DNA from: Candidatus Poribacteria bacterium
Lineage (GTDB): Bacteria > Poribacteria > WGA-4E > WGA-3G
Assembly: GCA_963663765.2 (NCBI GenBank)
Contig: CAXXUA010000006.1
Location: forward strand, 352,001 to 416,000
Reading direction: 5' to 3'
DNA: 64,000 nucleotides
Each line of letters starts with the position of its first letter. The first letter of the stretch is position 1. Shown in pieces: positions 6,855 to 64,000 of this stretch. The notes beneath the pieces were generated by a model. The model ran no database searches. It saw only the letters and a list, made by a program, of their open reading frames with translations, and was not told the origin of the DNA. A program made the translations under genes and the position numbers.

Positions 6855-6910
6855 GAAGTACGACTTGTGCCAGTTAACCCATTGTTTTCAAAGTTATTAC
6901 ATATATTAGG

Positions 6911-9135: not shown

Positions 9136-9156
9136 TTGGTTTTACCTCTATGTTGG

Positions 9157-9835: not shown

Positions 9836-10474
9836 TAAATGTATACACACGACTTGTGTCAGTTAACCCATTGTTTTCAAAGTTATTACATATATTAGGT
9901 TTATAATGCGCACATATCGTCCCTACCAAATCAACCCCAAATGCGCCAAATCAACGGTATGAATGCCATTAAGGCATTCCCCGTATGGCATTTGTCGGGA
10001 CTGAAGATCGTTTCAAACTATGAAGGACACCTGCAAAACGTTATGCTTATGTGAAACAATGATTAACATATAGTTATTTAGCACAACTCGTTAATATTAT
10101 ATATGAACGGGTGAGGTGTTTGGGAGGTTTTTTGGATGTTGTTTATTGGGATTTCATATAGATATACAACGGATAATCAATTGACTGGATTGTCTGAACC
10201 AGGATTTTCAGGATTATGAGTTTTGCTCGTTATGGTGCGAATCACAAGTAATACCATTTTCATGTGATAATGTCTCATTAGCAGCGGAAATCTGGTAGGA
10301 GCGACCTCACGGTCGCGACCGGGAGGTCGCTCCTACCGAAGAGAGTAACCCCCTGCCAGTATACAGTAGAATTCCTTAATGAGACAAGATTTATTTGAAT
10401 TGGTATAAGGATAAACGCACATCATATATACCTGGATTTTTTCTGAACCAGGATTTTCAAATCAAGAAATCAAG

Positions 10475-10761
10475 AAATCAACGGTATGAATGCCATTTAG
10501 GCATTCCCCCAAATCAACGGTATGAATGCCATTTAGGCATTCCCCCAAATCAACGGTATGAATGCCATTTAGGCATTCCCCCAAATCAACGGTATGAATG
10601 CCATTTAGGCATTCCCCCAAATCAACGGTATGAATGCCATTTAGGCATTCCCCCAAATCAACGGTATGAATGCCATTTAGGCATTCCCCCAAATCAACGG
10701 TATGAATGCCATTTAGGCATTCCCCCAAATCAACGGTATGAATGCCATTTAGGCATTCCCC
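10475..10761. repeat. Tandem 36-bp hairpin module, 8 copies
   Basis: CAAATCAACGGTATGAATGCCATTTAGGCATTCCCC repeated; GAATGCC/GGCATTC stem. Confidence 0.93.
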
Positions 10762-11234
10762 GGGTATGAATGCTATAAAGCATTCCCCCAAATCAACGCC
10801 AAATGCGCCTATGGCATTCGTCGGGTATGAATGCCTTATGGCATTCCCCGGGATTTCCAAATTTCCGGGATTATGAGTTTTGCTGTTTCTGCTGGTAATG
10901 AAAAGTGAGCATAAACGCCCATCATATATACCTGGATGTGGAAAATCCTGTTAATCTGGTAATCCTGATAAACATGGTTCAGAAAAATAAAACCCGCGAA
11001 CGGTCGCGACCAGGAGGTCGCTCCTACCAACGCGGGGAGTGTAATGCGTGTAATCCGCGATTCCGAACATATTTTCCATACCTGGATGTGGTAAATCCTG
11101 TAAATCTGGTGATCCTGTGAATCCTGGTTCAGAAAAATAAAACCCGCAAACGGTCGCGACCAGGAGGTCGCTCCTACCACTGCGGGGAGTGTAATGCGTG
11201 TAATCCGCGATTCCGAACATATTCCCCATATCAG

Positions 11235-11417
11235 GGGTGTGTAAAGTTTTGGTTACTGTGCGTAGGGGCGGGGTCTCCCCGCCCGAAAAGAGGTCTTACG
11301 CGGGCGAGGAAACCTCGCCCCTACGATGTCCACAGTTCCCTAACGTCAAGCAAGTTTTGATAGTAACTGGACGGACTTCTTTTAATATTAGAGTTCTACA
11401 AAACACTTTACACACCC
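11235..11417. mobile_element. MITE (GGGTGTGTAAAG ends) carrying a REP doublet
   Basis: TIR GGGTGTGTAAAG / CTTTACACACCC; 9-bp TSD CCATATCAG; internal GTAGGGGCGGGGTCTCCCCGCCC...GCCCCTAC pair. Confidence 0.85.
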
Positions 11418-11498
11418 CCATATCAGAAGATACTTGACTTTTTCACCGACCTTTTGTATATTTTGGTAGCAATATTCAGAGAAAAGGAACAAACATAC

Positions 11499-30800: not shown

Positions 30801-32614
30801 GGAGGACTTGGACTTTTAATCGAACCAGTTTGGAATAGAAACTTAAATCTTTATCCTCAACTATTTCTGCAGTTTCTATGACTTTTAATCGAACCAGTTT
30901 GGAATAGAAACATTTACTTCTCAGGCCTCTACTGGATAAAAGCGTCGCTTTTAATCGAACCAGTTTGGAATAGAAACTTTGACGAATTATGACGAATTAT
31001 GACGAATTTTAAGGCTTTTAATCGAACCAGTTTGGAATAGAAACTTCCTTTGCGATGTATATCGCTTCTGGGTTTTGATCTTTTAATCGAACCAGTTTGG
31101 AATAGAAACTCGTATTAGCAGCAGGTCTCGCAATCCCCCAAGACGCTTTTAATCGAACCAGTTTGGAATAGAAACTTTTGATGCGACAGTACGACATGCC
31201 ACCAGAAACCTTTTAATCGAACCAGTTTGGAATAGAAACAAGCCCGCGACGACGAGAGACGACTCAACGAAGACTTTTAATCGAACCAGTTTGGAATAGA
31301 AACAACTTCCCCGTAATCCTATCAAAAAACATGCTAAACCTTTTAATCGAACCAGTTTGGAATAGAAACGTTTCGTGTCCCCCCGTCTTCAGCGTTTTGT
31401 TCCATCCTTTTAATCGAACCAGTTTGGAATAGAAACTAAGTAAAACCAGTATTTAGAAGATAATAAATTTCACTTTTAATCGAACCAGTTTGGAATAGAA
31501 ACTTAGCATAAACATCAATAAACATTATGTCTTCAGCTTTTAATCGAACCAGTTTGGAATAGAAACTTCAAAAGGTCTTTGACGTAGTGGTACCAAATCA
31601 CTTTTAATCGAACCAGTTTGGAATAGAAACTCGAGAGTACAATAGAAAGGATGAAAATAAGAAATAAACTTTTAATCGAACCAGTTTGGAATAGAAACAT
31701 CCTAATCCTAACTAAAATTGAAAATGAACTTTTACTTTTAATCGAACCAGTTTGGAATAGAAACCTGCCTATAAGCATAGAAGAACAAAGAGAGAAGGTA
31801 CTTTTAATCGAACCAGTTTGGAATAGAAACGTTGGCTCCATTATCATTACGCAACTGGGTACTTTGCTCTTTTAATCGAACCAGTTTGGAATAGAAACTC
31901 TGCTGTGGTCTCTGGGGCTGCGGCGACTCTTTTTCCCTTTTAATCGAACCAGTTTGGAATAGAAACTCAAGCACGGTGGATTTTTCGGTTGACGCATCAA
32001 CTTCCTTTTAATCGAACCAGTTTGGAATAGAAACTCAACCAATCGTATCTTACTTGATTTCAAATCATATACTTTTAATCGAACCAGTTTGGAATAGAAA
32101 CAACACATTTATTGCATCTAATTGAGCGTTCTTTAAACTTTTAATCGAACCAGTTTGGAATAGAAACTTGTAATTGGTCGGCATATCAAAGTTGAACTTG
32201 GTTTTCTTTTAATCGAACCAGTTTGGAATAGAAACTTCTCAACTTGCTGATGCCTGTGATGCCTTTGTCTTTTGCCTTTTAATCGAACCAGTTTGGAATA
32301 GAAACTGATGTAGCATTTCCTGAATTGTGAGTGAACGGTTTCTTTTAATCGAACCAGTTTGGAATAGAAACATTTTCAGATCTCCCAACACCGAAGCCAA
32401 CCCCAAACTTTTAATCGAACCAGTTTGGAATAGAAACGGTCTTATTGTCCTTCTTCATATAGCCGTCTCGCTTCTTTTAATCGAACCAGTTTGGAATAGA
32501 AACTTGATTTTAAATATGTAGTATGGAATGGCTAGGTTTGCTTTTAATCGAACCAGTTTGGAATAGAAACTTTTGCCACGCATTCCTACTGATTTTAAGT
32601 CTTTCCTTTTAATC
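24868..32614 (+). CRISPR. CRISPR array 1, about 116 repeats
   Basis: Repeat CTTTTAATCGAACCAGTTTGGAATAGAAAC (30 nt) with mostly 33-42-nt spacers; last full repeat 32541-32570; truncated CTTTTAATC at 32606-32614. Confidence 0.99.
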
Positions 32615-47064: not shown

Positions 47065-48786
47065 TTAATTTGGTATAAGTTCGTGAAGTTCAGCGCGGAG
47101 CGCATTGATGGGTGCAAACAGTACCTCTTTGACAATAACAGGTGGGTCTAATAAGTTGCCATGCAGGATTTCGTAGCGCGCATCCCAGCAACCATATCCT
47201 TCTTTCCCTAACATTTGAAGAAAGAGGACGTGTTGATGTTGATTTTCCGATGTCGATGTGCCTTTATGGATATAATATGTTGCCTTACCGGTATTTGGAT
47301 GTAGGTAATCCTGCACCCTGCAAGAAAAGCGTATACCACCCAATTCTGTAAGTGTCAAGAGTGGATTTTTAACGAGATTAACAAGAAATTCAACACAGTG
47401 AAGAACAGCATCTGGGACTGCACATATTCCCTCATAAGTGAATACGAGATCGTGCCAATTTGCCCCGTTGTAACCAGAAGGGGAACCAGTATAAACGTTC
47501 ATCCCCCACGAGTTATCCCACCGTTCCATTGGCCAATCTTTTATTCCTTGGCGTTGGTAAAAACGTTCTCCACCAAAGAAACTCGGACCTTGGTCATCTT
47601 CAGGGGAGTGACCTATCGGCATAAAGGAAATACCAGCATCCTCTAAATCATCAAGCAACACAGGATAATTGCGTGCACAATAGATGCTGTGTTGATGCGG
47701 ATAACCTCTGTTGTGAATAGCAGGCATTATCTCTGTCCTGCGTTGCCTGATTTGAAAACGGAGCGAATAATAATCTATCATTTTTTCTGCGTCAAGTTCT
47801 AAATCAGAACTGAATAATAAGACGTAAGCTTGCTGTTTAGTGGTTAGGTTTGTTTTTTTGATACAAACGACATTCAATGGGTCGGGGAACTTTTTGTGGT
47901 GTAGTTCCATTTGATACACATCAGTTCTCAGATTGTCCTCTGTCTGTGTAAAAATAGAGTATTTTTCATCAATCTTATGTGGATTGACACGTTCTCCATA
48001 GATCGCACGCCGTCCGCGTCCCTTGTAAGGTGTTGTCGGTGGAAAATGCAACGCAGCATCGGTGCGTAGTTTTGAAATAAGATGGAGACCACATTGATTT
48101 ACCATTTGTAGAGCGTTATTATTTCCAAAATAGCCATCCAGGACAAAATAACGGATGGGTATCAAGTTATTTATTAGTTGTAGCACTTTTTTGAGCAGCG
48201 TTTGAAGTTGTTTCAAAGTATCACTGAGAACGACATCTCTTTTATTTTTGTTTCGGCTCCCTTTTGGACGTCCACCTTTAGATTTTGCTGTCTTGTTGGT
48301 GATGTCTGACTGTTTAGTCGGAGCGGCAGCAGGCTTTGAAGTTTTTTCACACCGAACGATTTGCTCAATAGCCATCGGGTAGGAACGTCGCTGAGATACA
48401 CTGACTAAGGATATGGCTAAGAACGATAAACCGGGTATGCTTTTCCCATGCAATGAGGAAAAAAAGCGTGATAAACCATAGGTGCATTTTCCATCTTTGC
48501 TTCTGACAACTTCATCGCCTGCTAAGATATAAACACTCTCATGATCAAGCAAGTGTGTGCGAAAAAAAGTCCAACACATTGTCGTCCAAGGAAGAACTGT
48601 GTTGAAAAAGCGTTGTATAGTGCGGTAACTACCTCCTTTTAATGTCCAACGAGAGATATTTAACATGGTGACCCGTCCTGTCATCGCAAGTAGTGCGAAT
48701 ACAACTTGACATAACTGACGGATCGTTGTTTTTGAAATACATGGATTAAGAATTGAAAAAAGTGCTATAATTTCTAACATGGGCAT
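47065..48786 (-). pseudogene. Truncated DDE transposase (IS4/IS701-like) fused in frame to an unrelated protein fragment
   Basis: GGSYRTIQRFF, AGDEVV and VLDGYFG; transposase similarity ends at YYSLRFQI before the expected Glu; TIR upstream at 48855-48869. Confidence 0.75.
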
Positions 48787-48892: not shown

Positions 48893-49473
48893 CTTTTAAT
48901 CGAACCAGTTTGGAATAGAAACATAACGATCTATGCTACGCTGTAGACCCTTGGGGTAACTTTTAATCGAACCCATAGGTGTCAACATAAGAAAAAGTCA
49001 AGTGCTAAATACCCCATCCCGGTAGGCATGCTTTGTAAGTGCGCCGATAAACACAGGATTGGAAAAGGCGCGCTTACAAAGCACCAAATCAACGGTATGA
49101 ATGCTGTTTAGGCATTCCCCGCCTACCTTGAGTGAGAAAATCGGGATTTCAAGGTTTCCCTCCTATTGGCAACGGCGCGCTTACAAAGCACGCTGCAGGG
49201 GAGTGCGGGTGAGTGCGGGGCGCGCTTACAAAGCACGCCTGCAGGAGAGTGCAGTTGGGTGGCGCGCTTACAAAGCACGCCTGCAGGGGAGTGCAGTTGG
49301 GTGGCGCGCTTACAAAGCACGCCTACCTTGAGTGAGAAAATCGGGGTTTCAAGGTTTCCCTCCTACAATAATATGAATCGCTAAGTTGACACCTATGGGG
49401 TACCTTTTAATCGAACCAGTTTGGAATAGAAACGGGGATAGTTGTCAGTTGTCAGCCGTAAGCCTTTTAATCG
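48893..49473 (+). CRISPR. Array remnant (CTTTT-type repeats) interrupted by a MITE
   Basis: Full repeats at 48893-48922 and about 49404-49433; partial repeats at about 48960 and 49464; CCCATAGGTGTCAAC...GTTGACACCTATGGG element at about 48972-49399. Confidence 0.85.
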
Positions 49474-49845: not shown

Positions 49846-50124
49846 CAGGACTTACGCAGTTTCTTGATTTAATCAAGGATTATGTTGAAAATGATGTAAT
49901 TAATCAGTATTGTTATAGGGTTCCAGCGCGCTTACAAAGCACCAAATCAAGAAATCAAGAAATCAACGGTATGAATGCCTTTTGGCATTCCCCGGGTATG
50001 AATGCCTTTTGGCATTCCCCGGGTATGAATGCCTTTTGGCATTCCCCGGGTATGAATCATGGAGCATGCCACACGCGCATGCTTCTTTATGCATTCCCCG
50101 CCTACCGTTTTTGCGTAAGTTCTG
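49846..50124. mobile_element. MITE with IS701-type ends
   Basis: CAGGACTTACGCA / TGCGTAAGTTCTG; 5-bp TSD TATAG. Confidence 0.85.
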
Positions 50125-50139
50125 TATAGTAATTAATTA

Positions 50140-50168
50140 TTGACAAGGAAGGCAAATATTGGTAAAAT
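50140..50168 (+). promoter_or_regulatory. Sigma70-type promoter of cas6
   Basis: TTGACA-N17-TAAAAT. Confidence 0.6.
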
Positions 50169-50222
50169 ACAGATACTGATTTGAATGTTTTTTTCTATCC
50201 CCTTCACAAAGTATAATCGTGT

Positions 50223-50975
50223 ATGCGCATACAAATCCTTGCGGATGTCGGTAAAGGCATCACCTTACCCATCAACTACAATCACCTGCTTGTAGGTGTA
50301 ATTTACAAGTTCCTTGCAGAATCTAACTCGGAATATGCCGATTTTCTCCACGAAGAAGGCTACCACGTTGATGCGAAACGGTTCAAACTCTTTACCTTCT
50401 CGCAACTGATGGCTGAACGCAGACATATCAACGGTGATCAGATACATTTTCGTTCTGCTTTGACGTGGTTTGTCTCCTCTCCTATTGAACAATTCCTATC
50501 GCATTTTGCGGATACACTCCTCACCGGAGGTAGACTTTCGGTTGGCAAACACGACCTCAAGATTCGGGATGTGACAATCCCGCGCGCACCGCGTTTTCGG
50601 TCGGAGATGGCGTTCCGATGCTTGTCTCCGATCGTGATGTCGGCTGTGCGTGAACACGAAGGCAAACGTGGCATGCACTACTGCTTGCCTGACGATTCTG
50701 AACTCTCCGAACTCATCCGTCAAAACCTTATCCGCAAACATCAAGCGATTTATGAACGCACACCGCAAGACGATTCGTTATCCTTCCGTTTTGATGACCG
50801 CTATATCCATAGGAAACAGGGACGCGTCACTCGGCTTGTTGATTTCAAGGGCATCAAAATACGTGGGATTTTGTGTCCGTTTCGTGTGTCTGGCAGCGTG
50901 GCATTGATTCAGACGGGTTATGAATGCGGGTTTGGGGATAAGAATAGTGCTGGTTTTGGGATGGTTGGGGTTTGA
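50223..50975 (+). CDS. cas6: CRISPR endoribonuclease Cas6
   Basis: LPINYNH, FLHEEGY, FKLFTFS, LSPI and the G-rich loop GFGDKNSAGFG. Confidence 0.96.
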   Translation: MRIQILADVGKGITLPINYNHLLVGVIYKFLAESNSEYADFLHEEGYHVDAKRFKLFTFSQLMAERRHINGDQIHFRSALTWFVSSPIEQFLSHFADTLLTGGRLSVGKHDLKIRDVTIPRAPRFRSEMAFRCLSPIVMSAVREHEGKRGMHYCLPDDSELSELIRQNLIRKHQAIYERTPQDDSLSFRFDDRYIHRKQGRVTRLVDFKGIKIRGILCPFRVSGSVALIQTGYECGFGDKNSAGFGMVGV

Positions 50976-51067
50976 GAGTCACGATTTTCATCTTGACAGA
51001 TATATCAAGAACCTTGTATAATGTTAATGCTTTTTTAGAAGTCTTAGAATTAATATAGGTTGTAGGA

Positions 51068-51289
51068 TTGAAATTTCAATGGGATAGTCAACATAACACA
51101 GAAATGCTTGATGAATATGATTTCAGCGAAGGTATACGAGGTAAATATGCTGAAAAATACTACGCAGTAAGAAATATGGTTAGGCTTGATGCGGATGTTG
51201 CCAAGATGTTCCCTGATACGAAATCTGTCAACGATGTTTTGCGAACGTTAGGTAAAATCATCGCAGACTATCAGAAAAAAGCATTATAG
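51068..51289 (+). CDS. BrnA-like antitoxin, fused to a BrnT-like N-terminal stub
   Basis: EYDFSEGIRGKYA...VRLDADVAKMFPDTKSVNDVLR preceded by (M)KFQWD; promoter TTGACA-N18-TATAAT at 50993-51022. Confidence 0.65.
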   Translation: MKFQWDSQHNTEMLDEYDFSEGIRGKYAEKYYAVRNMVRLDADVAKMFPDTKSVNDVLRTLGKIIADYQKKAL

Positions 51290-51332
51290 TCTTAAATGTC
51301 CGCGCTTCAGAGAGAAAAGCATACGTAGGTTG

Positions 51333-51477
51333 AGTTTGGAATAGAAACCTGTCTTGCTAAATTGCACGTGGTGGAAGTGTTAGTTTTAATCGCACCAGTT
51401 TGGAATAGAAATGTATATTGTTGTATAGTTTTATTAAGAACTGTAATTATCTAATCGAACCAATTTGGAATATGTTA
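51333..51477 (+). ncRNA. crRNA-like regulatory mini-array (CreR-like)
   Basis: Half repeat 51333-51348, 34-nt spacer, repeat 51383-51412, 35-nt spacer, degenerate repeat 51448-51477; spacer 2 matches 51673-51689. Confidence 0.8.
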
Positions 51478-51639
51478 GGTTTTAGAATTAATTGGACATT
51501 ATTCGCCTGTAGGAGGGAACTCAGATTCCCGACTATCAGTGCCTTTAGTCGCGATTGGGAGATCGCTCCTACAAGTGTGGTGTATAATAATTTAAATAAT
51601 TCACGATAAACAAGAATTACGCCCAAAATAAAAAAAGAT

Positions 51640-51668
51640 TTGACATCCACTAATTATTAAGGTATAAT
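51640..51668 (+). promoter_or_regulatory. Consensus sigma70 promoter of the cas8 operon
   Basis: TTGACA-N17-TATAAT, immediately followed by the mini-array target. Confidence 0.8.
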
Positions 51669-51808
51669 ACCAGTATATTGTTGTGTAGTAAGTAAAAAAT
51701 TGATAAGTTATTGACAATTTAATCCGATATGTAATAGTTTTACATGACAACCGTTATTTACTTACGTTATAATTATCTTTACATAGTCTTTTGTAGGAGG
51801 TGTTTGGA

Positions 51809-53578
51809 ATGGCAGAACAATCCACCCTTAATTTAGAAGATAATTCATCTCAATTAGTTTTAGAACTAACAGGCAATCCGTGGACAGATTTCGGCATTGT
51901 GAGTTTATGTGAAGAATTACGGATGGGTGCCCCAGATTTCTTGATTGAAGGGCCTACTTTGACAGAAAACGAGGTAACAATTACCATTAATGCTTTAGAT
52001 AAAGAGTCGGTAAAGGCTTGGTTTAATGACAGACTGAAAAGTCAGTGGAATCAGATATATTGGTTGAGCAAGGACGCAAGAATTTACAATAAGTCATTGA
52101 TGCATGACTTATCTCTAAAAACTGATACGGAAGGTTTCGTTGTTACCGACGAAAAAATACCGATTATGGAGAACCAAAAAAAGCGGATCAAGAAATTATC
52201 GCCGCAAACCCAAGTCAAAAATGAAATACGAGTTGCATCGCACCGATTGAATTTCATCGGTACGTTGGGAGAAGGAAAAACGAGAGATGTTCAAAAGATA
52301 AAAAGGGAAAAGGAAAACATTGTTCAAGCCTTCGTTGAAAATTGGATTTTACCTGAAGGTAAAAAAATATGCGAAATTTCTGGACGTGTAAGTAAGAAAT
52401 TAGAAGAGGCACATCAAGTGCTTAACCCTTTTTTGAATAAGCATCAAAACGTTAAAGTGCGCGGTTTTGGTGGAACAAACACTTACTCCAAGGTTAGCCC
52501 GATACTAAGATTTGTCAACCTTTGCACTACATTGGATCCGTCTATTCCATATATTTACAAACATCCGACAACATTTTTGATTTTACCAGAAATTGCTAAC
52601 TTATCACTTTTGACAAAGGTATATGGCTTATTGCAGATAAATCTCAAGGATATTAGTGATAAAAATGAACTTTCCACAGCAACAAACCTTCGTGGGATTC
52701 TGCGGACATCAGATGCATATTCGCTTGTAATCACATTGTTTCATAATATTTTCTACAAGTTTACAACAAAAGATGAATGGGATTTAGCCCCGTGGAAAGA
52801 ACCTGAAGAAATTCGACACCAAGTAACTCGGTGGGTGATTATTCCATTCGCGAGAGAACAAAATATCCGTTTCGGAAATTTCAATACAATAGAGGTGGAC
52901 CATAGACTTTACGATTTTATTAAACCGATTCGGTACAATGAAAACGATGACATCCGACTTGTACTGGATATCCTGAGTCGTATTAGTTTCAGTGCCGGTG
53001 GGGAAAACGCTGTTCGTTTATTAAGCAAGGCAATTGCAATCAGTGATTCCCAATTGATGAAAACTGCAATTTTTGGAATCTGGAAGCATGCTGATGCAAT
53101 CAATTTTCGTCCGCAAGAAGCTCGACCACATCCAATCAGATTATTACCACATTTCATTAGATATTTCTTGGAGGTGAATACTGTGTTAAATGATGAAATC
53201 CGTAAGGATTTACAAGAATTAGGACGCACAATTGGGTCCGTTTTTTCAAGCGATGTAACGCTGATTAGTAAACTTTACAACGTTTCAAGCGAGAACGCAC
53301 TTCGTGAATTTCTGAAGCAGTCCCAATATCGACTTTATAAAATTGGCCGGGTGGGTGAAGTAAAAGTCGATGGTTTTCTACACGCTGATGTGCAGGGTGA
53401 GAACAAGTCAATATCTAATGTCAAGGAAGAGCGAATCACACGCATATTAGATAAGTTATCTGAAGACACTAACGCTTGGAAACTGATTGCAGAGACCCTT
53501 TCAACGTTTGCAAGCCTCTACGCATTTAAGGCAAACTTTTTCAAATCTAAAAACCAAGGAGAGAAAGATAATGAATAA
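51809..53578 (+). CDS. cas8b: Type I-B large subunit Cas8 (Cst1/Cas8b-like)
   Basis: TGNPWTDFGI N-terminal motif, CEISG, position before cas7; AGGAGG RBS. Confidence 0.75.
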   Translation: MAEQSTLNLEDNSSQLVLELTGNPWTDFGIVSLCEELRMGAPDFLIEGPTLTENEVTITINALDKESVKAWFNDRLKSQWNQIYWLSKDARIYNKSLMHDLSLKTDTEGFVVTDEKIPIMENQKKRIKKLSPQTQVKNEIRVASHRLNFIGTLGEGKTRDVQKIKREKENIVQAFVENWILPEGKKICEISGRVSKKLEEAHQVLNPFLNKHQNVKVRGFGGTNTYSKVSPILRFVNLCTTLDPSIPYIYKHPTTFLILPEIANLSLLTKVYGLLQINLKDISDKNELSTATNLRGILRTSDAYSLVITLFHNIFYKFTTKDEWDLAPWKEPEEIRHQVTRWVIIPFAREQNIRFGNFNTIEVDHRLYDFIKPIRYNENDDIRLVLDILSRISFSAGGENAVRLLSKAIAISDSQLMKTAIFGIWKHADAINFRPQEARPHPIRLLPHFIRYFLEVNTVLNDEIRKDLQELGRTIGSVFSSDVTLISKLYNVSSENALREFLKQSQYRLYKIGRVGEVKVDGFLHADVQGENKSISNVKEERITRILDKLSEDTNAWKLIAETLSTFASLYAFKANFFKSKNQGEKDNE

Positions 53579-54551
53579 ACTTAAAGGTATCACTATAGTT
53601 TGGTTGAGTAAAACCGACCTGAGCAATCTCAACGCAGGTGAGGGTGGTGGCGGTAACGTTACCGAACTTAAGACTTATGACAACGGTAAACCGTATGCCT
53701 CCGGGCAGTCAGTCCGACATGCGCTCCGCGAGGCAATAGAACGTAACAATCCTGGAGTGTTCCATTGTACGCCAGAATCACCTTGCGGTGATATTGATAA
53801 TTGCTGGCTTTGCGATCTTTTTGGTTTTTTAAATCCAAAACTTGATGAAGGTTTTGACCGCAGATGGTCACCCATTAAAGCGACACCTGCTTTGGGACAG
53901 ATCGCAAGTGACATTGTTACCGATATGCTAATTCGGATGAGTGAAAAACCTAAACCGAGAACCAGAAGGGCACAAACAGAAGATGAACAAGAAAGTTCTG
54001 ACAACGAAGAACAGAGAAAGAGAGATCAGCGTATAGCGTACGTCCAAATGATGTCTAACGTATACCGTATAGGGCTTTCTCTTGACTTTGCAAACATTGG
54101 CTTCGCAAAAAAAGCCAAGTACGATGGTTCTGGTAACAAGGCTGAATTTAAAGGATGGGAAGAACTTGCTAACATTAGTTTGGACGATCGTAAAAAACGC
54201 GCTCTTGCTGTATTAGAAGCAATTGGCGGCATTGCAGATTTTGCGAAACAAGCACGAAACGCCGCATCGCTCTCACCCGATATTTTTATCGCATCAATCC
54301 ATTATCGTTATTCACACAGAACGCTTCGTGCTTTGGAGTGTGATGATAATGGCAAAGTCAGAACCGATACATTAAAGTTTATATTAAAAGATTTACAAGA
54401 CGACGGGGCAAAGTTGTTTTTTGGATTCACGCCAAGTGTGGTAGAAAATGACGACGAACTTCTTAAAACCGTTAAGGAATTCGAACTTGAACCTGTGAAT
54501 CCGATTCAGTCATTGAGAAATCTGTCGGAATTTGTTGAGAATGCAACGTAA
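53571..54551 (+). CDS. cas7: Cas7 (DevR/Cst2 type)
   Basis: NLNAGEG...NVTELK, YASGQSVRHALRE, CDLFGF and RWSPIK. Confidence 0.92.
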   Translation: MNKLKGITIVWLSKTDLSNLNAGEGGGGNVTELKTYDNGKPYASGQSVRHALREAIERNNPGVFHCTPESPCGDIDNCWLCDLFGFLNPKLDEGFDRRWSPIKATPALGQIASDIVTDMLIRMSEKPKPRTRRAQTEDEQESSDNEEQRKRDQRIAYVQMMSNVYRIGLSLDFANIGFAKKAKYDGSGNKAEFKGWEELANISLDDRKKRALAVLEAIGGIADFAKQARNAASLSPDIFIASIHYRYSHRTLRALECDDNGKVRTDTLKFILKDLQDDGAKLFFGFTPSVVENDDELLKTVKEFELEPVNPIQSLRNLSEFVENAT

Positions 54552-54608
54552 GAGTAAAAATCGGTTAGGGTGAATCAATTTTCACTCTAATTTCGATTGG
54601 AGATAATC

Positions 54609-55307
54609 ATGGAAAAAATTCTAACATGCGGTCTGCTTTGTCCATTCTGGACATCTTTCCGAAATCCAAGTACGGTGAATGTTCATGTAACTTATCCGTT
54701 CCCTCCGCCAACTACACTTTATGGCATGTTAAATGCAGCACGTGGTATGCCACAAGACTGGCAGGATGACCGTGATGAATGGCAGGTTTCTCTTGTTATT
54801 GAGTCAAAAGGGAAGTCAATTCAGACATTCAGCAAAATACTGAAAATCTATGAAGAAAAACGGAGTAAAGCGGATGCCGCAAAAGACGAATTTGGTAAGG
54901 CGTTATTTTATAAGATAACAGTCATGCGCCAGAAAATGATCGGTGTTGAATATAAGGCTTATTTCAAGGCACCAGAGAAACAACTTATTGAAGGACATCA
55001 AGCATTACTATCTCCACACTGGCCCCTTTACTTGGGCGAATCCGATGACCTTGTTGATGTGCTTTCACCTCGTATTATCGAAGTTGAACCAATTCCAGTA
55101 AAACGTATCCATTCAATAATCCCAGGATTAGAACATGACTGTCGGTTAGTAAAAGTCCCACACCGATTTGAAAAACAAGGTAAAAGTTGGCACGTTGAAC
55201 AACAACTCTACTCGATTCCACCTGAGAGAGGAATTCAGTTGAGTGAACCGAAATTAGCATATCCAATTGAAGGGAGGAATATAGTATTCAATGGAAATTC
55301 TTGGTAA
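54609..55307 (+). CDS. cas5: Cas5
   Basis: WTSFRNP..TYPFPPPTTLYGML and LYLGESDD. Confidence 0.93.
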   Translation: MEKILTCGLLCPFWTSFRNPSTVNVHVTYPFPPPTTLYGMLNAARGMPQDWQDDRDEWQVSLVIESKGKSIQTFSKILKIYEEKRSKADAAKDEFGKALFYKITVMRQKMIGVEYKAYFKAPEKQLIEGHQALLSPHWPLYLGESDDLVDVLSPRIIEVEPIPVKRIHSIIPGLEHDCRLVKVPHRFEKQGKSWHVEQQLYSIPPERGIQLSEPKLAYPIEGRNIVFNGNSW

Positions 55308-57753
55308 ATCAAATCAAACATTGCTTGGGCATACCCGTGACTGCATGACTGTCTGTGATAGAATACTTTCCTTGCGCGAACCTTTTTTGCAGAACTTATG
55401 TGATCAATATGATTGGGATTGGGAGGAAGTGAAAGGTTGCGTTCGCTTTGCAGTTTGGTTTCATGACATCGGTAAAGCATCAAATCAGTGGCAGGAATAC
55501 ATAAAGGGAAATGGTAAATCAGTCACACACGCGCTCCCATCTTTTGCAATCGGCGCGATGAGTCTTGACATACGGGGATTTGAGAAAAGTCCAAGACTTG
55601 CTGCACTCTTCGCGATTTTAGCACATCACACGCAAATACTCCATAACGGTTCTTTTCCTGAAGAGAGATATCGGCGCAGTATTGATATACCTTTATCATA
55701 TCTTAACGAACATTTCGCAGCTTTTCGTAAAATTGAACCTAACTTCAAAATAGATGAATGGAATAAGCAGCAACTTCAGTTCAATCCTTTCTGTAAATAT
55801 TTAGACAAATTCAAAACAGAAGTACGAAATCATCCTGATTTACAATTTAAAACCCTTTATACCCTCATTCTCAACATACTAACAGCATCCGATAACTACG
55901 CAAGCAAGAATGAACCGAAAGGCGGTTCCCAAGATAAACCCCATGGTAGAAATCTTACTCTCGGGCAACTTATGCTAATCAACGATAAATTCCCGCTTTA
56001 CGACAATACGCCTCTGAAATTGTTGTCATTTTTACCAGAAGGTGCACAACCCAACAAGATGCAACAAAATATAGTAGCATCCGATTCTGACCGAATGATT
56101 CTAAACGCGGGATGTGGTGAAGGTAAAACTGCAGCAGCATTGCTTTTTGCACAAAGGTTGTTACAGGAAAATAAAATTGAAAGAATCATTCTGACACTGC
56201 CAACGAAATTCACAGCAAATAATCTATATCGGGATTTGGTTAGTCCAGATGGATACGATATTCCTGAGCAATTAGTTGGGATCGTACATGGCGATTCAGA
56301 ACAATTCCTGACGCAACTCTCAGATGATGGAAAAAAGCCGAATGAAGTTGAGAATGAGGAAAAGCAGAACGAAGCTGAGGAAACAAATGAGAATGTTAAA
56401 GCACAGGAATTTGAGAATAATTTCTATGCCAAACCTGTTACGATCTCAACAGTAGATCATTTGTTGATGAGTCTATATCACGGTTACAAATATGCCGATC
56501 GCGCATTTTTCAATATCGCCTCCTCTCTTGTAGTTTTCGATGAAGTCCACTACTATCAAGGAAAAACAACTAAAGCAATCGCAACGGCAATACGCCGCTT
56601 AACGCAGTTAAAAATCCCGCATCTTGTGATGACCGCGACGATACCAGACGCTGTGCGTGAACGTTTCAACTATCCTGAAAAATACCCATTTCAAAAAGCC
56701 CCCGCACTAATCAACGGCACATCAGACCCAAAGACTCCTTTTGAGATAGTCAAACTGAAAGAAACCCCATTGGATAAGGATAACGCTATTTCACCAGAAC
56801 TTGTGGATTTGGTCAATCAGAACCAAAATAAAAAACAAATCATCTTTGTTAACCAAGTCAACTGCGCAAAACATGTTTATCTTGCATTGAAAGATCAAGG
56901 TATCTGTGAAAACCTAATCTGCTATCATTCCGGTTTTATTGGCAAACATCGCGTTGAAAAAGAAATAATGATACGTTCACTTTTCAAGGGTTCAGATTCT
57001 TGTGTGTTGGTCTCAACTCAAGTAAGTGAACTTAGTTTGGACATCAGCGCAGATGTGATGTATTCTGAAATCGCACCGATAGACTCTATTGTACAAAGGG
57101 GTGGACGATTGCACCGAAACGGATGGAATATTGATGCACCTTGTGGATATGACCGCTGTAGAACTTGTGACCAAGATAGGGATGTAAACCATAGCACATA
57201 TCGACTCTATCTTATGCCTCCTTATGAGGACGAAAAAGCGTGTTTACCTTACGAACCTGACATCTTAGGCAAATCATGGAATGTTATTGGAGATCGTTAC
57301 ACGTTTGCTGATGCATGCAAGTGGGTAAATGAAGTATATCAAGATTGCCCAGTACTTATGCACACCGAACTTTCAAAAGCAATACACAACGATCTAATTT
57401 TTGGCAAAAAGCCACAAGACAACTATGCAGGAGAAAAAGCCGAGGAGGGAAGAGTCGTCATTCGAGAACAGAAATATCGTACTTATGATGTTGTTCCTTA
57501 TGATGAATTTGCCGAAATCGTCAAGCAGGATTATCGGGAATTCAAAAACTATCACCTGAGTATCCCGTCCTGGGCATTTTGGAAGGCTGAAAAGGGGAAC
57601 CAACTTCACCTTAAAGAGGGTAAACTTGAGATTAGAAATCCAAAGACAAAAAAGAGTACGACTCATCAAATTCCGTTTACAGTAATCCATGCGGACTATA
57701 ATTTTGATATTGGGCTTCCAGTAGGTTTAGAGAAACCTACAAACATGATATAA
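55291..57753 (+). CDS. cas3: Cas3 HD nuclease-helicase
   Basis: HDIGK, HH, GCGEGKT, DEVH, MTAT, STQV and QRGGR. Confidence 0.96.
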   Translation: MEILGKSNQTLLGHTRDCMTVCDRILSLREPFLQNLCDQYDWDWEEVKGCVRFAVWFHDIGKASNQWQEYIKGNGKSVTHALPSFAIGAMSLDIRGFEKSPRLAALFAILAHHTQILHNGSFPEERYRRSIDIPLSYLNEHFAAFRKIEPNFKIDEWNKQQLQFNPFCKYLDKFKTEVRNHPDLQFKTLYTLILNILTASDNYASKNEPKGGSQDKPHGRNLTLGQLMLINDKFPLYDNTPLKLLSFLPEGAQPNKMQQNIVASDSDRMILNAGCGEGKTAAALLFAQRLLQENKIERIILTLPTKFTANNLYRDLVSPDGYDIPEQLVGIVHGDSEQFLTQLSDDGKKPNEVENEEKQNEAEETNENVKAQEFENNFYAKPVTISTVDHLLMSLYHGYKYADRAFFNIASSLVVFDEVHYYQGKTTKAIATAIRRLTQLKIPHLVMTATIPDAVRERFNYPEKYPFQKAPALINGTSDPKTPFEIVKLKETPLDKDNAISPELVDLVNQNQNKKQIIFVNQVNCAKHVYLALKDQGICENLICYHSGFIGKHRVEKEIMIRSLFKGSDSCVLVSTQVSELSLDISADVMYSEIAPIDSIVQRGGRLHRNGWNIDAPCGYDRCRTCDQDRDVNHSTYRLYLMPPYEDEKACLPYEPDILGKSWNVIGDRYTFADACKWVNEVYQDCPVLMHTELSKAIHNDLIFGKKPQDNYAGEKAEEGRVVIREQKYRTYDVVPYDEFAEIVKQDYREFKNYHLSIPSWAFWKAEKGNQLHLKEGKLEIRNPKTKKSTTHQIPFTVIHADYNFDIGLPVGLEKPTNMI

Positions 57754-58284: not shown

Positions 58285-59765
58285 TAATCAGGTAGGTGCG
58301 ATTTCTATACGGATTGGACTATAACAAGAAATTTAGCATTCTGTAGGTGCGATCTACGAATTATGATAGGTCGGGAATCGGAGTTCCCTCCTACAGAAGA
58401 AGGAAAGAGAAAAAATCAGGTAGGTGCGATTTCTATCCCTATTGGAATATAACAAGAGATTTAGCATTCTGTAGGAGTGATCTCCGAATTATGATAGGTC
58501 GGGAATCGGAGTTCCCTCATACAGAAGAAAGCAAGAGCCAAAATCAGGTAGGTGCGATTTCTATCCCTATTGGAATATAACAAGAGATTTAGCATTCTGT
58601 AGGAGCGATCGCCGAATTATGATAGGTCGGGAATCGGAGTTCCCTCATACAGAAGAAGGAAAGAGAAAAAATCAGGTAGGTGCGATCTCCGAATTACGAT
58701 AGGTCGGGAATCGGAGTTCCCTCATACAGAAGAAGGCAAGAGCCAAAATCAGGTAGGTGCGATTTCTATACGTTTTGGACTATAAAAAGAGAGTTAGCAT
58801 TCTGTAGGAGAGATCTCCGAATTACGATAGGTCGGGAATCGGAGTTCCCTCATACAGAAGAAAACAAGTGCCAAAATCAGGTAGGTGCGATTTCCGAATC
58901 GCGATAGGTCGGGAATCGGAGTTCCCTCATACAGAAGAAAGCAAGAGCCAAAATCAGGTAGGTGCGATTTCCGAATCACGATATGTCGGGAATCGGAGTT
59001 CCCTCCTACAGAAGAAGGCAAGTGTCAAAATCAGGTAGGTGCGATCTCCGAATCGCGATAGGTCGGGAATCGGAGTTCCCTCATACAGAAGAAAGCAAGA
59101 GTCAAAATCAGGTAGGAGCGATTTCTATACGTATTGGAATATAACAAGAGATTTAGCAGTCTGTAGGAGCGACCTCCGAATCGCGTTAGGTCGGGAATCG
59201 GAGTTCCCTCCTACAGAAGAAGCAAAGAGCCAAAATCAGGTAGGTGCGATTTCTATACGTATTGGAATATAACAAGAGATTTAGCAGTCTGTAGGAGCGA
59301 CCTCCGAATTATGATAGGTCGGGAATCGGAGTTCCCTCCTACAGAAGAAGGAAAGAGCCAAAATCAGGTAGGTGCGATTTCTATACGGATTGGACTATAA
59401 CAAGAAATTTAGCAGTCTGTAGGAGCGATCTACGAATCACGATAGGTCGGGAATCGGAGTTCCCTCCTACAGAAGAAGGAAAGAGCCAAAATCAGGTAGG
59501 TGCGATCTCCGAATCGCGATAGGTCGGGAATCGGAGTTCCCTCCTACAGAAGAAAGCAAGAGCCAAAATCAGGTAGGTGCGATCTCCGAATCGCGATAGG
59601 TCGGGAATCGGAGTTCCCTCCTACAGAAGAATGCAAGTGTCAAAATCAGGTAGGTGCGATTTCTATTGGACTATAACAAGAGATTTAGCAGTCTGTAGGA
59701 GCGACCTCCGAATCGCGTTAGGTCGGGAATCGGAGTTCCCTCCTACAGAAGAAGAAAAGAGTCAA
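58285..59765. repeat. REP-doublet (BIME-like) tandem array, about 14 units of 77 or 128 bp
   Basis: GTAGGTGCGATCTCCGAATCGCGA facing GTCGGGAATCGGAGTTCCCTCCTAC, repeated between cas4 and cas1. Confidence 0.9.
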
Positions 59766-61335: not shown

Positions 61336-64000
61336 CTTCTAATCGAACCAGTTTGGAATAGAAACAATGCTGCGTTGGCAGATAAGGTTATGCAGCGTAT
61401 TGATCTTCTAATCGAACCAGTTTGGAATAGAAACTAGAGATAGAAAGTCTTGCACCTGAAAAGACATCGTTTGCTTCTAATCGAACCAGTTTGGAATAGA
61501 AACGTGTAAACATCGCAGGCAGGCTACCACTACCAATAGACTTCTAATCGAACCAGTTTGGAATAGAAACTTTCACAAACAATATGAGCATACCAACCTG
61601 ACGCTTTTCTTCTAATCGAACCAGTTTGGAATAGAAACAAAATCTATAACAGTATCATAACTCAAGATCCAAGACTTCTAATCGAACCAGTTTGGAATAG
61701 AAACGTCAATATCCAAAATCAGTTCCCCATCTTCAACATACCTTCTAATCGAACCAGTTTGGAATAGAAACCTCAAACTTTGTCTCTCTTTCAGGGAAAG
61801 AGATAGTCTTCTAATCGAACCAGTTTGGAATAGAAACGTAGTTTCCATAGATTAAACCCTCTGGAATATTACTTCTAATCGAACCAGTTTGGAATAGAAA
61901 CTTAACAAATAGCGTCCCGACTCTATGTTATACAGACTTCTAATCGAACCAGTTTGGAATAGAAACTCATCAGTGGACGAAACTTCAATCGCCTTAACCT
62001 ATACTTCTAATCGAACCAGTTTGGAATAGAAACGTATGAAGAAAGTGCGCTGCAAGCAGCGCGTATCGGCTTCTAATCGAACCAGTTTGGAATAGAAACG
62101 GTGCTGCTACTGGTTTGGTAGCAGAACGTTGACTTCTAATCGAACCAGTTTGGAATAGAAACAAAACTGCCGGAGGATTAGATTTCAGAAGTGATTTAAC
62201 TTCTAATCGAACCAGTTTGGAATAGAAACACTTAACAAGGGTATATCCGTGCTTGGCAAGCTTCACTTCTAATCGAACCAGTTTGGAATAGAAACAAGCA
62301 ATTCCTATATATATTTTTACTGATGTTTTAGTCTTCTAATCGAACCAGTTTGGAATAGAAACTATCCTATAGGTCACCCGAGATGTCCAGTTATACACTT
62401 CTAATCGAACCAGTTTGGAATAGAAACGTGAGACTGAGGCTGAGGTGAAGGCTCATGATCTACCTTCTAATCGAACCAGTTTGGAATAGAAACTTGTCCG
62501 TCTTCGACACTTCCGTAAGGATTTTGCTTCTAATCGAACCAGTTTGGAATAGAAACTAAGGTTATTTCAATATAGTCATCTTACGCATTTCAGCTTCTAA
62601 TCGAACCAGTTTGGAATAGAAACAAGCCGTTGCTGCTCCCAAGTTGTGGGAAGAATTTAACCTTCTAATCGAACCAGTTTGGAATAGAAACGAAGCAAAC
62701 GATGCAGAAAAAGCACGTGTCAATACTTCTAATCGAACCAGTTTGGAATAGAAACTGCAGGACTTTCAACTCGGATGGGACAACCGAAGCAGCCTTGTAA
62801 TCGAACCAGTTTGGAATAGAAACTCAATCGTTCCTGCCTTTATCATTTCGGTGCGGATCCTTCTAATCGAACCAGTTTGGAATAGAAACCCTGCCAGAAC
62901 TTGACAGACTATTTGACGACTGGAATATACTTCTAATCGAACCAGTTTGGAATAGAAACCCTTCACAGTGCCATCCGGGCAATTCCGATACGGTTACTTC
63001 TAATCGAACCAGTTTGGAATAGAAACTGAAACGCTCAAAGACACTTATTCGGACAAGGACTATCTTCTAATCGAACCAGTTTGGAATAGAAACTTTATCA
63101 GTTAACTCTTGCTGTTCTGTGTCTGATAACCTTCTAATCGAACCAGTTTGGAATAGAAACGTTGGCAGATGTATTTGTCTGTCAACCCATACCCGCTTCT
63201 AATCGAACCAGTTTGGAATAGAAACGCTCTAATAACTCCCCAACGTCAAGCATAACGTGACCTTCTAATCGAACCAGTTTGGAATAGAAACCACGCAATC
63301 CATTCTGTTCAGACGGAACGTAACAAACCTTCTAATCGAACCAGTTTGGAATAGAAACCTGCTTGCCTTTCTCTACTTTCACATTCTTGTTTTCCTTCTA
63401 ATCGAACCAGTTTGGAATAGAAACGATTTCATCTTACTTTATCTCCTCAATTATTTCGTCCTTCTAATCGAACCAGTTTGGAATAGAAACATTTGAGATT
63501 GACTTGAATGACGGCAAGGGTGCGCGTGACTTCTAATCGAACCAGTTTGGAATAGAAACACAGACTTTGATGGCACGATTGCACGTCTAAATACTTCTTC
63601 TAATCGAACCAGTTTGGAATAGAAACTCTTTTGCTGCTTCATAATCGTTTTGAATGTCTTTACCTTCTAATCGAACCAGTTTGGAATAGAAACATAGTCA
63701 TCACGGAAGACGAACCGCGGTGGACATTACGCTTCTAATCGAACCAGTTTGGAATAGAAACACGCGCAAGGACGAAGTAGCGAATATGATCTTTGACCTT
63801 CTAATCGAACCAGTTTGGAATAGAAACCCCTGCTACTGATGACGGCACACACTGGACACAGTTTCACTTCTAATCGAACCAGTTTGGAATAGAAACATTC
63901 AATTGGGACTGAACCTAACGTATCAGCAATACTTCTAATCGAACCAGTTTGGAATAGAAACATGTTTCCTTAGATGAAATAGGCGATATGTATGGATTGC
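61336..64000 (+). CRISPR. CRISPR array 2, 40 repeats in the window, probably runs off the end
   Basis: Repeat CTTCTAATCGAACCAGTTTGGAATAGAAAC; differs from array 1 at position 4. Confidence 0.99.

What the first reader, a model, noticed from the sequence alone, without database searches (positions are those of the whole stretch)
51333..51689. CreR-like mini-array whose spacer targets the cas8 operon promoter
Seen: degenerate repeats sit between cas6 and cas8. Spacer 2 (51413-51447) begins GTATATTGTTGTATAGT and matches 51673-51689 GTATATTGTTGTGTAGT (16/17, first 12 perfect). The match lies 4 nt downstream of a perfect TTGACA-N17-TATAAT promoter and is preceded by CCA. The distal half of the spacer does not match. 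Known: creTA lies between cas6 and cas8 in the Haloarcula type I-B locus; crRNA-like RNAs with seed-only pairing make Cascade repress promoters without Cas3 cleavage; CCA/CCT is a PAM of the C. difficile I-B system. Inference: Cascade autorepression of cas8-cas3, which would be relieved by anti-CRISPRs.
Basis: partly seen in the sequence, partly recalled or inferred. Interest (0 to 1): 0.8.

Follow-up and report, generated by a model that had tools for sequence, protein, structure and literature searches.

The report
Self-repressing guide RNA for cas genes
A decayed two-repeat CRISPR unit between cas6 and cas8 of a Poribacteria genome very probably makes a guide RNA that parks the CRISPR complex on its own cas8 promoter, a known kind of self-regulation, here backed by clean co-variation in eleven related genomes.

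Summary
A degenerate mini-array lies between cas6 and a cas8-like gene: half repeat 51333-51348, spacer 1, psiR2 51383-51412, spacer 2 51413-51447, psiR3 51448-51477. The first 17 nt of spacer 2 match 51673-51689 at 16 of 17. The match follows a CCA and starts 4 nt after a perfect TTGACA-N17-TATAAT.

It is not chance. The same module (repeat with intact 5' handle, spacer, repeat with ruined 3' end, TATAAT box with an upstream hexamer, YCN, partial protospacer) occurs in 11 of 159 species genomes of the order, all Candidatus Poribacteria by record titles. Spacer and target differ between loci but change together. Positions 1-5, 7-11 and 13-17 agree in 160 of 165 cells. Positions 6, 12 and 18, which Cascade flips out, agree in 7 of 33. 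Positions 19-24 agree in 18 of 66.

This is the signature of a CreR-type regulatory crRNA that lets Cascade bind, but not cut, its own promoter. Such mini-arrays are already described for type I-B, I-E, I-F1 and V-A, so this is a new member of a known kind. No RNA or repression data exist, and the system's PAM could not be determined independently.

The parts
50223..50975 (+). cas6 (makes the 8-nt 5' handle; lies outside the repressed unit)
   Evidence: TIGR01877 E 1.8e-39; PF01881 and PF21350
50993..51022 (+). consensus promoter-like site TTGACA-N18-TATAAT, the only strong candidate promoter upstream of the mini-array (inferred source of the precursor RNA)
   Evidence: 12 of 12 matches; no + strand terminator predicted between it and the mini-array
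51104..51289 (+). small ORF (61 aa from the ATG; listed as 73 aa from TTG 51068), no family hit; looks antitoxin-like by eye only
   Evidence: no Pfam or NCBIfam hit
51333..51348 (+). psiR1: 3' half of a repeat with an intact ATAGAAAC handle
   Evidence: 0 mismatches of 16
51349..51382 (+). spacer 1 (34 nt), no target found
   Evidence: best genome-wide site outside itself scores 13 of 15 and lacks a YCN flank
51383..51412 (+). psiR2: near-intact repeat (3 of 30 mismatches) that supplies the 5' handle ATAGAAAT of the regulatory RNA
51413..51447 (+). psiS (spacer 2, 35 nt): positions 1-17 match the promoter site; positions 11-33 can form a hairpin
51448..51477 (+). psiR3: the first 25 nt (3' handle and cleavage context) are fairly kept; the last 5 nt of the 8-nt 5'-handle part are ruined
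   Evidence: 9 of 30 mismatches, 5 of them in positions 26-30
51508..51573 (+). inserted palindromic repeat element (MITE-like, multi-copy in the genome). It lengthens the spacer-to-target distance to 260 nt, against 99-145 nt in six of the other loci
   Evidence: I1; the same unit repeats in tandem at 58286-59660; distances
51640..51668 (+). target promoter P1: TTGACA-N17-TATAAT
   Evidence: 12 of 12
51670..51672 (+). PAM-like CCA
   Evidence: YCN in 11 of 11 loci
51673..51689 (+). matched part of the protospacer (16 of 17). It covers the expected transcription start; a full-length footprint would reach about 51707
51711..51773 (+). two further promoter-like sites (TTGACA-16-AATAGT and ATGACA-18-TATAAT) between the target and cas8; a possible escape or second promoter
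   Evidence: similar TTGACA sites 41-45 nt after the target start in G077 and G056
51809..53578 (+). cas8-like large subunit (589 aa), first gene of the repressed operon
   Evidence: synteny; no Pfam, NCBIfam or PDB sequence hit; C-terminal helical bundle resembles Cas11/Csa5 (TM 0.60-0.65 on the target, E 1e-2; model pLDDT 56)
53487..57753 (+). cas7 (53487-54551 as listed), cas5 (54597-55307), cas3 (55291-57753): the rest of the operon

Best explanation
The mini-array encodes a CreR-type regulatory crRNA. A precursor that contains psiR2-psiS-psiR3 is cut by Cas6 8 nt before the end of each repeat. This gives an RNA that begins ATAGAAAT-GTATATTG... and ends in the 5' part of psiR3. The precursor's promoter is not identified; the consensus promoter at 50993 or read-through from cas6 are candidates. 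Loaded into the type I-B Cascade, the RNA recognises the CCA-flanked site that starts 4 nt after the -10 box of the cas8 promoter. It pairs over only about 17 nt (three 5-nt segments) with the template strand. The short R-loop holds Cascade on the transcription start and blocks RNA polymerase. It is too short to license Cas3, so the cell does not cut its own chromosome. Cascade therefore represses its own operon (cas8-cas7-cas5-cas3). Anything that lowers free, CreR-loaded Cascade (many competing crRNAs from the more than 300 spacers of this genome, or anti-CRISPR proteins) would lift the repression. Shown here: the anatomy, the promoter position, the PAM-like flank, and conservation with co-variation and 6-nt periodicity. 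Inferred: transcription, processing, binding, repression and relief.
For: (1) Anatomy as described for CreR: the upstream psiR keeps the 8-nt 5' handle, and the downstream psiR keeps the 3'-handle part and loses the last 5-6 nt. This holds in the window and in the other six loci compared, and matches the description in section 8 of the CreR preprint. (2) Eleven loci in 11 species genomes carry the module. Pairing positions 1-5, 7-11 and 13-17 match in 160 of 165 cells although the spacer varies at 13 of these 15 positions. Positions 6, 12 and 18 match in 7 of 33 cells, and positions 19-24 in 18 of 66. (3) Swap control: own spacer against own promoter scores 14-15 of 15, while spacers against other loci's promoters score 9-13, except the window/G078 pair, which shares the spacer. 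Shuffled spacers reach the observed score in 0-2 of 2000 trials per locus. (4) The target always lies 1-11 nt after a TATAAT box. TTGACA sits 17 nt upstream of that box in 8 loci, TTGAAA or TTGCAT in 2, and there is no good -35 in 1. (5) The flank is YCN in 11 of 11 loci, the interference PAM consensus of another I-B system. (6) The cas genes are intact and the arrays are very large (307 spacers extracted), so the effector exists. (7) The mechanism has been shown by experiment for homologous elements in I-B, I-E, V-A and I-F1.
Against: No RNA evidence: the RNA-library contigs that could be laid do not cover the mini-array or cas8, so there is no verdict. No promoter was found directly upstream of the mini-array in the window. 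The PAM of this system could not be derived from canonical spacers. The only good self-match (36 of 38) has a CGC flank, which is uninformative. Two more promoter-like sites lie between the target and cas8 and could give expression that escapes repression. The five closest Cas8 relatives (70-84% identity) have no mini-array within 1.5-2.5 kb upstream, so the element is dispensable. The window copy is atypical: it matches at positions 6 and 12 and mismatches at position 13. The 11 loci are related, so the cell counts overstate independence.
Confidence: 0.85

Rival explanations
1. The guide is the antitoxin half of a CreTA-like addiction module. Its main job would be to repress a toxin encoded next to the target, with cas repression only a side effect.
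For: CreTA sits between cas6 and cas8 in Haloarcula, and its CreA represses both creT and cas8. In three related loci (G053, G126, G154) the first gene after the target promoter is an orphan 118-140 aa ORF of unknown function.
Against: In the window no ORF with a ribosome-binding site lies between the target and cas8. The only candidate is a 30-codon frame without a Shine-Dalgarno sequence that overlaps the cas8 start. The orphan ORF is absent from the window. The small ORF 51104-51289 lies upstream of the mini-array and is not under the targeted promoter.
Confidence: 0.06
2. It is a decaying remnant of an ordinary array, and the similarity to the promoter is chance or the relic of an accidental self-acquired spacer without function.
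For: The locus is littered with array fragments broken by IS and MITE insertions. Spacer 1 has no target. Close Cas8 relatives lack the element.
Against: A relic would not keep pairing at 160 of 165 cells across 11 species while the sequences change. It would not place its mismatches on positions 6, 12 and 18, and it would not always sit after a TATAAT box with a YCN flank. Shuffles reach the score in 0-2 of 2000 trials.
Confidence: 0.03
3. The two 17-nt copies are two operator sites of a DNA-binding protein, or a DNA repeat kept alike by gene conversion, unrelated to RNA guidance.
For: Direct repeats near promoters are often operators. The target consensus resembles an extended -10 region.
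Against: A protein operator gives no reason for a 6-nt mismatch periodicity. It also does not explain why one copy always starts exactly at the 3' end of a CRISPR repeat handle, or why the other always follows YCN. The flanks of the two copies are not homologous.
Confidence: 0.03
4. The RNA is made but acts as a decoy or sponge that titrates Cas6 or Cascade, or primes adaptation, rather than as a promoter-bound repressor.
For: psiS is self-complementary in 7 of 11 loci, which could affect loading. Competition between CreR and crRNAs for Cas proteins is documented.
Against: A decoy needs no matching site at a promoter, so the co-variation with the target would be unexplained.
Confidence: 0.03

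Closest known systems
CreR (Cas-regulating RNA) and CreA of type I-B, I-E and V-A systems (preprint 10.1101/2023.03.10.532045; passages and section 8 read)
   Same: A degenerate mini-CRISPR psiR-psiS-psiR inside the cas locus. psiR1 keeps the 5' handle and psiR2 keeps the 3'-handle part. The 5' part of psiS matches a PAM-flanked site at the promoter of the effector operon. There is no obvious toxin partner. In Haloarcula I-B the element also lies between cas6 and cas8.
   Different: The host is a bacterial candidate phylum (Poribacteria) with a Cas8 that has no family assignment. The match is three 5-nt segments (about 17 nt), against 11 to 15 consecutive nt in the described cases. Nothing is tested by experiment here. 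The window has an extra upstream half repeat and a spacer without a target.
Regulatory mini-arrays / cr-like RNAs of Shmakov et al. (PMC10120712; passages read)
   Same: A standalone two-repeat unit with a degenerate distal repeat. The spacer partly matches a cas promoter, with a canonical PAM and mismatches at every sixth position. They are reported in 18% of 1243 I-B loci, where the target is the cas6 promoter.
   Different: In the window, G078 and G093 the target is the cas8 promoter downstream of cas6. In G095 and G132 it is the cas6 promoter, as in that survey. The sixth-position mismatches were described there for I-F1; here they are seen for I-B-like loci across 11 species. Poribacteria do not occur in the main text (0 occurrences). 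The supplementary tables could not be opened and may list such loci.
tracr-L autorepression of Cas9 (recalled; cited in the CreR preprint)
   Same: A natural guide with partial complementarity turns the effector into a repressor of its own promoter.
   Different: A type II single-protein effector and a tracrRNA isoform, not a degenerate array unit.
Phage-encoded crRNA-like anti-CRISPR RNAs (10.1101/2024.10.29.618823; abstract and passages read)
   Same: The same kind of guide and target.
   Different: Carried by phages to silence the host. No copy of this module with repeat context was found among the 13 viral stretches that matched the pattern.

Membership tests
CreR / regulatory mini-array | Degenerate psiR-psiS-psiR unit within or beside a cas locus, derived from the locus's own repeat | tested here: met
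   psiR2 has 3 of 30 and psiR3 has 9 of 30 mismatches to the array consensus; the unit lies between cas6 and cas8
CreR / regulatory mini-array | The upstream psiR conserves the 8-nt 5' handle; the downstream psiR conserves the 3'-handle part | tested here: met
   ATAGAAAT against consensus ATAGAAAC. psiR3 keeps positions 1-25 fairly well and loses 26-30. The same asymmetry holds in the other six loci printed
CreR / regulatory mini-array | The 5' (seed-proximal) part of psiS matches a site in or next to the promoter of effector cas genes; the distal part does not | tested here: met
   16 of 17 match starting 4 nt after the -10 box. Positions 19-24 match in 18 of 66 cells across loci
CreR / regulatory mini-array | The target is flanked by the system's functional PAM | tested here: inconclusive
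   YCN in 11 of 11 loci, equal to the C. difficile I-B consensus. The PAM of this system could not be derived from canonical spacers
CreR / regulatory mini-array | Conservation and co-variation of guide and target | tested here: met
   160 of 165 pairing cells match, with 13 of 15 columns variable; swap and shuffle controls
CreR / regulatory mini-array | A mature crRNA-like RNA is produced by Cas6 | not testable with these tools
   Only low-depth contigs of RNA libraries were available, and they do not cover the region
CreR / regulatory mini-array | Cascade-dependent, Cas3-independent repression of the promoter | not testable with these tools
   Needs a reporter experiment
CreTA (toxin-antitoxin form) | A CRISPR-repressed toxin gene under the targeted promoter | tested here: not met
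   No ORF with a ribosome-binding site lies between the target and cas8. A non-coding toxin RNA cannot be excluded
Type I-B CRISPR-Cas | Gene order cas6-cas8b-cas7-cas5-cas3-cas4-cas1-cas2 with a I-B type Cas1 | tested here: met
   Cas1 hits TIGR03641 at 449.9 bits (cut-off 304.1). Cas7 hits the DevR subfamily TIGR01875 at 86.4 bits (cut-off 67.3); its I-B model TIGR02585 scores 71.6, just under the cut-off of 72.75
Type I-B CRISPR-Cas | A recognisable Cas8b large subunit | tested here: inconclusive
   No Pfam, NCBIfam or PDB sequence hit. Only a Cas11-like C-terminal fold match at E 1e-2 from a model with pLDDT 56

The most novel reading that the evidence does not exclude
The unit 'psiR-psiS-psiR plus consensus promoter plus protospacer' may be a portable regulatory cassette. 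In Poribacteria it would have been moved in front of different first genes, and its guide may be built as a deliberately weak competitor. The first genes are two unrelated-looking cas8 families, cas6, and an orphan 118-140 aa gene. The unmatched half of psiS folds back on the spacer in 7 of 11 loci, in most of them on the seed. Repression would then hold only when Cascade is in excess over the very many canonical crRNAs. The window's cassette is 86% identical to that of G078, although the two Cas8 proteins are 46% identical and the closest Cas8 relatives have no cassette.
Probability: 0.2. Interest if true: 0.6.

Novelty: new member of a known kind. Interest (0 to 1): 0.45.

Why it matters
It extends crRNA-guided autorepression of cas operons to Poribacteria, an uncultivated, CRISPR-rich phylum. 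Several record titles and the sequencing runs that hold related sequence point to sponge metagenomes. It also offers a clean natural data set: eleven diverged guide-target pairs that show which positions of a type I-B guide must pair (1-5, 7-11, 13-17) and which are free (6, 12, 18 and beyond 18). This can serve as a design rule for non-cutting repression by I-B Cascade. It also gives a ready set of constructs to test how giant arrays and Cas supply are balanced. It does not reveal a new principle.

Tried and rejected
Chance match elsewhere: the pair of near-copies at C15:137616 and 137892 lies inside a repetitive coding region that read as TPR-like by eye (no family search was run). It has nothing to do with CRISPR. 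Other genome sites with 14 of 15 to spacer 2 (C3:170314, C4:526640 and others) lie in a repeated element or in coding DNA, not at promoters.

Spacer 1: no target. The best site outside itself scores 13 of 15 and has no YCN flank.

PAM from canonical spacers: 307 spacers were compared by BLAST with the array-masked genome. This gave one good self-match (36 of 38, flank CGC) and weak ones, which is uninformative. The 7.7 kb array searched against 112 family genomes returned array-to-array alignments in the rows that were listed.

More instances or phage copies: the pattern of handle plus seed consensus found 13 stretches in viral contigs, and the metagenome scan reported 103, of which loci up to L148 were listed and examined. 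None of the examined stretches had CRISPR-repeat context upstream; the single 7-mismatch case is random.

RNA evidence: four RNA-library runs, kept only as Logan contigs, were laid on 50000-53600. Two of the four look like one data set filed twice. Contigs cover multi-copy MITE sequence, part of cas6 from a relative, and 51088-51329 (the small ORF) at depth 3-5. Nothing lies on the mini-array, the promoter or cas8. Contigs cannot show ends or absence, so there is no verdict on expression.

Repeat structure: the canonical repeat, psiR2 and psiR3 fold no better than shuffles, so no Cas6 hairpin argument can be made.

Cas8 identity: the AlphaFold model has a mean pLDDT of 56. Only its C-terminal helical bundle gave Cascade-related hits, which is weak.

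My first assumption that the genome is cyanobacterial (note) was wrong. Record titles name Candidatus Poribacteria.

The literature search was wasted because 'creta' matched 'Cretaceous'.

Full report
WHAT IS THERE. The window is contig C6:352001-416000 of a 6.35 Mb, 15-contig genome. Record titles of the homologous loci name Candidatus Poribacteria. The window holds a type I-B-like cas operon. Cas6 is at 50223-50975. A 589-aa ORF without any family hit, here called cas8-like, runs from ATG 51809 to 53578. It is followed by cas7, cas5, cas3 (HD plus helicase) and cas4, then a block of tandem MITE-like repeats, then cas1 (I-B type, TIGR03641 at 449.9 bits) and cas2. Very large arrays with a 30-nt repeat lie at 24868-32570 and from 61336 to the end of the window. 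Across the genome, 307 spacers of 32-42 nt could be extracted.

THE OBSERVATION. Between cas6 and cas8 there are five repeat-derived elements. They are a 3' half repeat (51333-51348), spacer 1 (51349-51382), psiR2 (51383-51412, 3 of 30 mismatches, handle ATAGAAAT), spacer 2 or psiS (51413-51447), and psiR3 (51448-51477, 9 of 30 mismatches with the last five bases ruined). The first 17 nt of psiS recur at 51673-51689 with one mismatch, at position 13. That site is preceded by CCA and starts 4 nt after the -10 box of a 12-of-12 TTGACA-N17-TATAAT site. The exact 12-mer occurs five times in the whole genome, these two included. None of 2000 shuffled spacers reached the observed score in the 330 nt downstream.

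COMPARATIVE TEST. The cas8-like protein has homologues in 28 of 159 genomes of the order. By the genome-contig scan, it occurs almost only in Poribacteria records. Searching the upstream DNA of these loci for repeat-like sequence found the same module in G078, G093, G154, G132 and G095 and in G053. A search with the 95-nt mini-array itself added G056, G126, G077 and G140. That makes 11 of 159 species genomes, which is a lower bound. In all 11 loci the order is the same. First comes a repeat with an intact or nearly intact 8-nt handle, then a 30-35 nt spacer, then a repeat whose last 5-6 nt are degenerate. The target site starts 99-260 nt after the spacer start in the seven loci measured. It consists of a TATAAT box, then 1-11 nt, then YCN, then a sequence that matches the start of the spacer. 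TTGACA lies 17 nt upstream of the TATAAT box in 8 loci, TTGAAA or TTGCAT in 2, and there is no good -35 in 1.

The spacers differ between loci at 13 of the 15 positions 1-5, 7-11 and 13-17. Yet spacer and target agree in 160 of 165 cells at those positions. At positions 6, 12 and 18 they agree in 7 of 33 cells, and at positions 19-24 in 18 of 66. In G053 and G056 the mismatches within positions 1-18 are exactly 6, 12 and 18. In a swap control on seven loci, a spacer scored 14-15 of 15 on its own promoter and 9-13 on the others, except for the window/G078 pair, which shares the spacer.

Every sixth guide base is flipped out in type I Cascade and does not pair. This is established knowledge, restated for I-F1 in PMC10120712. 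The pattern therefore points to selection for recognition by Cascade, not for a DNA repeat or a protein operator. The loci are related, so the counts are not independent events. But the multi-base changes (for example ACTACC in G132 and the different seed of G077), matched on both sides, cannot be inherited identity alone.

MECHANISM. The best reading is a CreR-type guide. Cas6 cuts the precursor and leaves ATAGAAAT as the 5' handle. Cascade loaded with this RNA binds the CCA-flanked site on the transcription start of the cas8 promoter and pairs with the template strand over three 5-nt segments. The absence of pairing beyond position 18 keeps the R-loop too short for Cas3. The result is autorepression of cas8-cas7-cas5-cas3. 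It would be relieved when canonical crRNAs or anti-CRISPR proteins reduce CreR-loaded Cascade.

The last steps are taken from experiments on homologous elements: Haloarcula I-B CreA, Salmonella I-E CreR and Moraxella V-A CreR (preprint 10.1101/2023.03.10.532045, passages and section 8), and P. aeruginosa I-F1 (PMC10120712, passages). The YCN flank equals the interference PAM measured in C. difficile I-B (PMC8406132, passages). The PAM of this system itself could not be determined. cas6 has its own promoter-like site (50140-50168) and lies outside the repressed unit in the window. In G095 and G132 the same module sits in front of cas6.

CAVEATS. No RNA data bear on the element (no verdict). No promoter was found directly before the mini-array in the window. 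The 12-of-12 site at 50993-51022, upstream of a small ORF, is the best candidate for the precursor's promoter. G078 has a TTGACA-N17-TACAAT site 24 nt before its psiR. Two more promoter-like sites lie between the target and cas8. Comparable TTGACA sites lie 41-45 nt after the target start in G077 and G056. They may be occluded by Cascade or may give basal expression. The five closest Cas8 relatives (70-84% identity) have no mini-array within 1.5-2.5 kb upstream. The window's mini-array is 86% identical to that of G078, whose Cas8 is only 46% identical. This suggests exchange of the module by recombination, but that is inference only. The call 'cas8' rests on position in the operon and on a weak Cas11-like fold match of the C-terminal bundle.

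COMPARISON AND NOVELTY. Regulatory mini-arrays that target cas promoters are described for I-B, I-E, I-F1, I-D and V-A. In the survey of PMC10120712, 18% of 1243 I-B loci carry a mini-array. All sequence-level defining features of CreR that could be tested are met. Expression and repression could not be tested. The toxin-antitoxin form (CreTA) is not supported, because no ORF with a ribosome-binding site lies under the target promoter before cas8.

The word Poribacteria does not occur in the main text of the three papers checked. None of the 12 papers listed for Poribacteria, CRISPR and mini-array, out of 121 that hold two of the three terms, contains the word Poribacteria. The supplementary tables could not be read. 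I file this as a new member of a known kind.

Three details may be new. First, the I-B pairing rule read from 11 natural pairs. Second, the placement of the cassette before different first genes: this cas8 family, a second cas8-like family beginning MPIYEKLMGNPFVDAG, cas6, or an orphan 118-140 aa gene. Third, a tendency of psiS to be self-complementary: at most 5% of shuffles fold as well in 7 of 11 loci, which is unexplained.

VERDICT. Confidence in the mechanism is 0.85, and interest is moderate.

Noticed in passing
window 51413-51447 and the psiS of 10 related loci: The regulatory spacer tends to fold on itself. The MFE is reached by at most 5% of 1000 shuffles in 7 of 11 loci. Mean MFE is -5.1 kcal/mol at 27% GC, against -3.7 for 307 canonical spacers at 40% GC. 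In most loci the seed pairs with positions 17-28; in the window the hairpin is distal (positions 11-33). No explanation. Term searches for hairpin and stem-loop found no such feature of psiS in the main texts of the two CreR/crlRNA preprints checked.
   Followed up: partly
window 51016-51033: A second, weaker site for spacer 2 overlaps the -10 box of the promoter at 50993-51022. Positions 1-5 and 7-10 match (12 of 15 by my reading of the 13-of-20 hit), but the flank is CTT, not YCN. It could be feedback on the guide's own promoter, or chance, because the target consensus itself resembles a TATAAT box.
   Followed up: partly
L055 1983-2405; L181 1738-2094; L049 1965-2348: An orphan 118-140 aa ORF family (25 homologues; the one named hit is a Poribacteria hypothetical protein; no Pfam domain) is the first gene after the CreR target promoter in three loci. 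It is a candidate cargo or CRISPR-repressed gene.
   Followed up: partly
L175 and L182 (downstream of the target), L020 about 786: A second cas8-like gene family that begins MPIYEKLMGNPFVDAG follows the same kind of CreR target promoter in G056 and G077. So the cassette is not tied to one Cas8 family.
   Followed up: partly
L024 645-1139 and L020 54-568 (= L047, L052): Between cas6 and cas8 lie seven variant repeats whose handle part reads ATCAATAC, ATCAACGC or ATCAATGC. They are separated by 40-64 nt 'spacers', at least one of which recurs between the two genomes. The last repeat has a normal handle and runs into a TTGACA. This is not an adaptive array, and its function is unknown.
   Followed up: no
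window 8753-9780, minus strand: An array leader with its promoter, two degenerate repeats, then two tandem signal-peptide, lipoprotein-like ORFs (by eye), then one more repeat: genes sitting inside an array remnant. No partial target for the adjoining spacers was found within 6500-11500.
   Followed up: partly
window 48894-49470 and 47065-48786: Array remnants upstream of cas6 are cut by MITE-like insertions, next to an IS701-family transposase gene.
   Followed up: no
window 58286-59660: A block of tandem 77/128/205-nt palindromic repeat units lies between cas4 and cas1. One copy of the same element sits at 51508-51573 between the mini-array and its target.
   Followed up: no
window 62756-62793 (C6:414756-414793): A canonical spacer matches the genome's own contig C4 near 209439-209476 at 36 of 38, with a 5' flank of CGC. 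This is a self-target that may be tolerated for lack of a PAM.
   Followed up: partly
window 51088-51329: Contigs from RNA libraries of related samples cover the small ORF but diverge upstream of 51088. The window's copy may therefore have lost its original 5' end.
   Followed up: no
L055 2501-2638 and 2906-4318: In G053 only the first 42 codons of this cas8 family remain. They are followed by a different large subunit with a Cas_CXXC_CXXC domain, and then by cas7.
   Followed up: no
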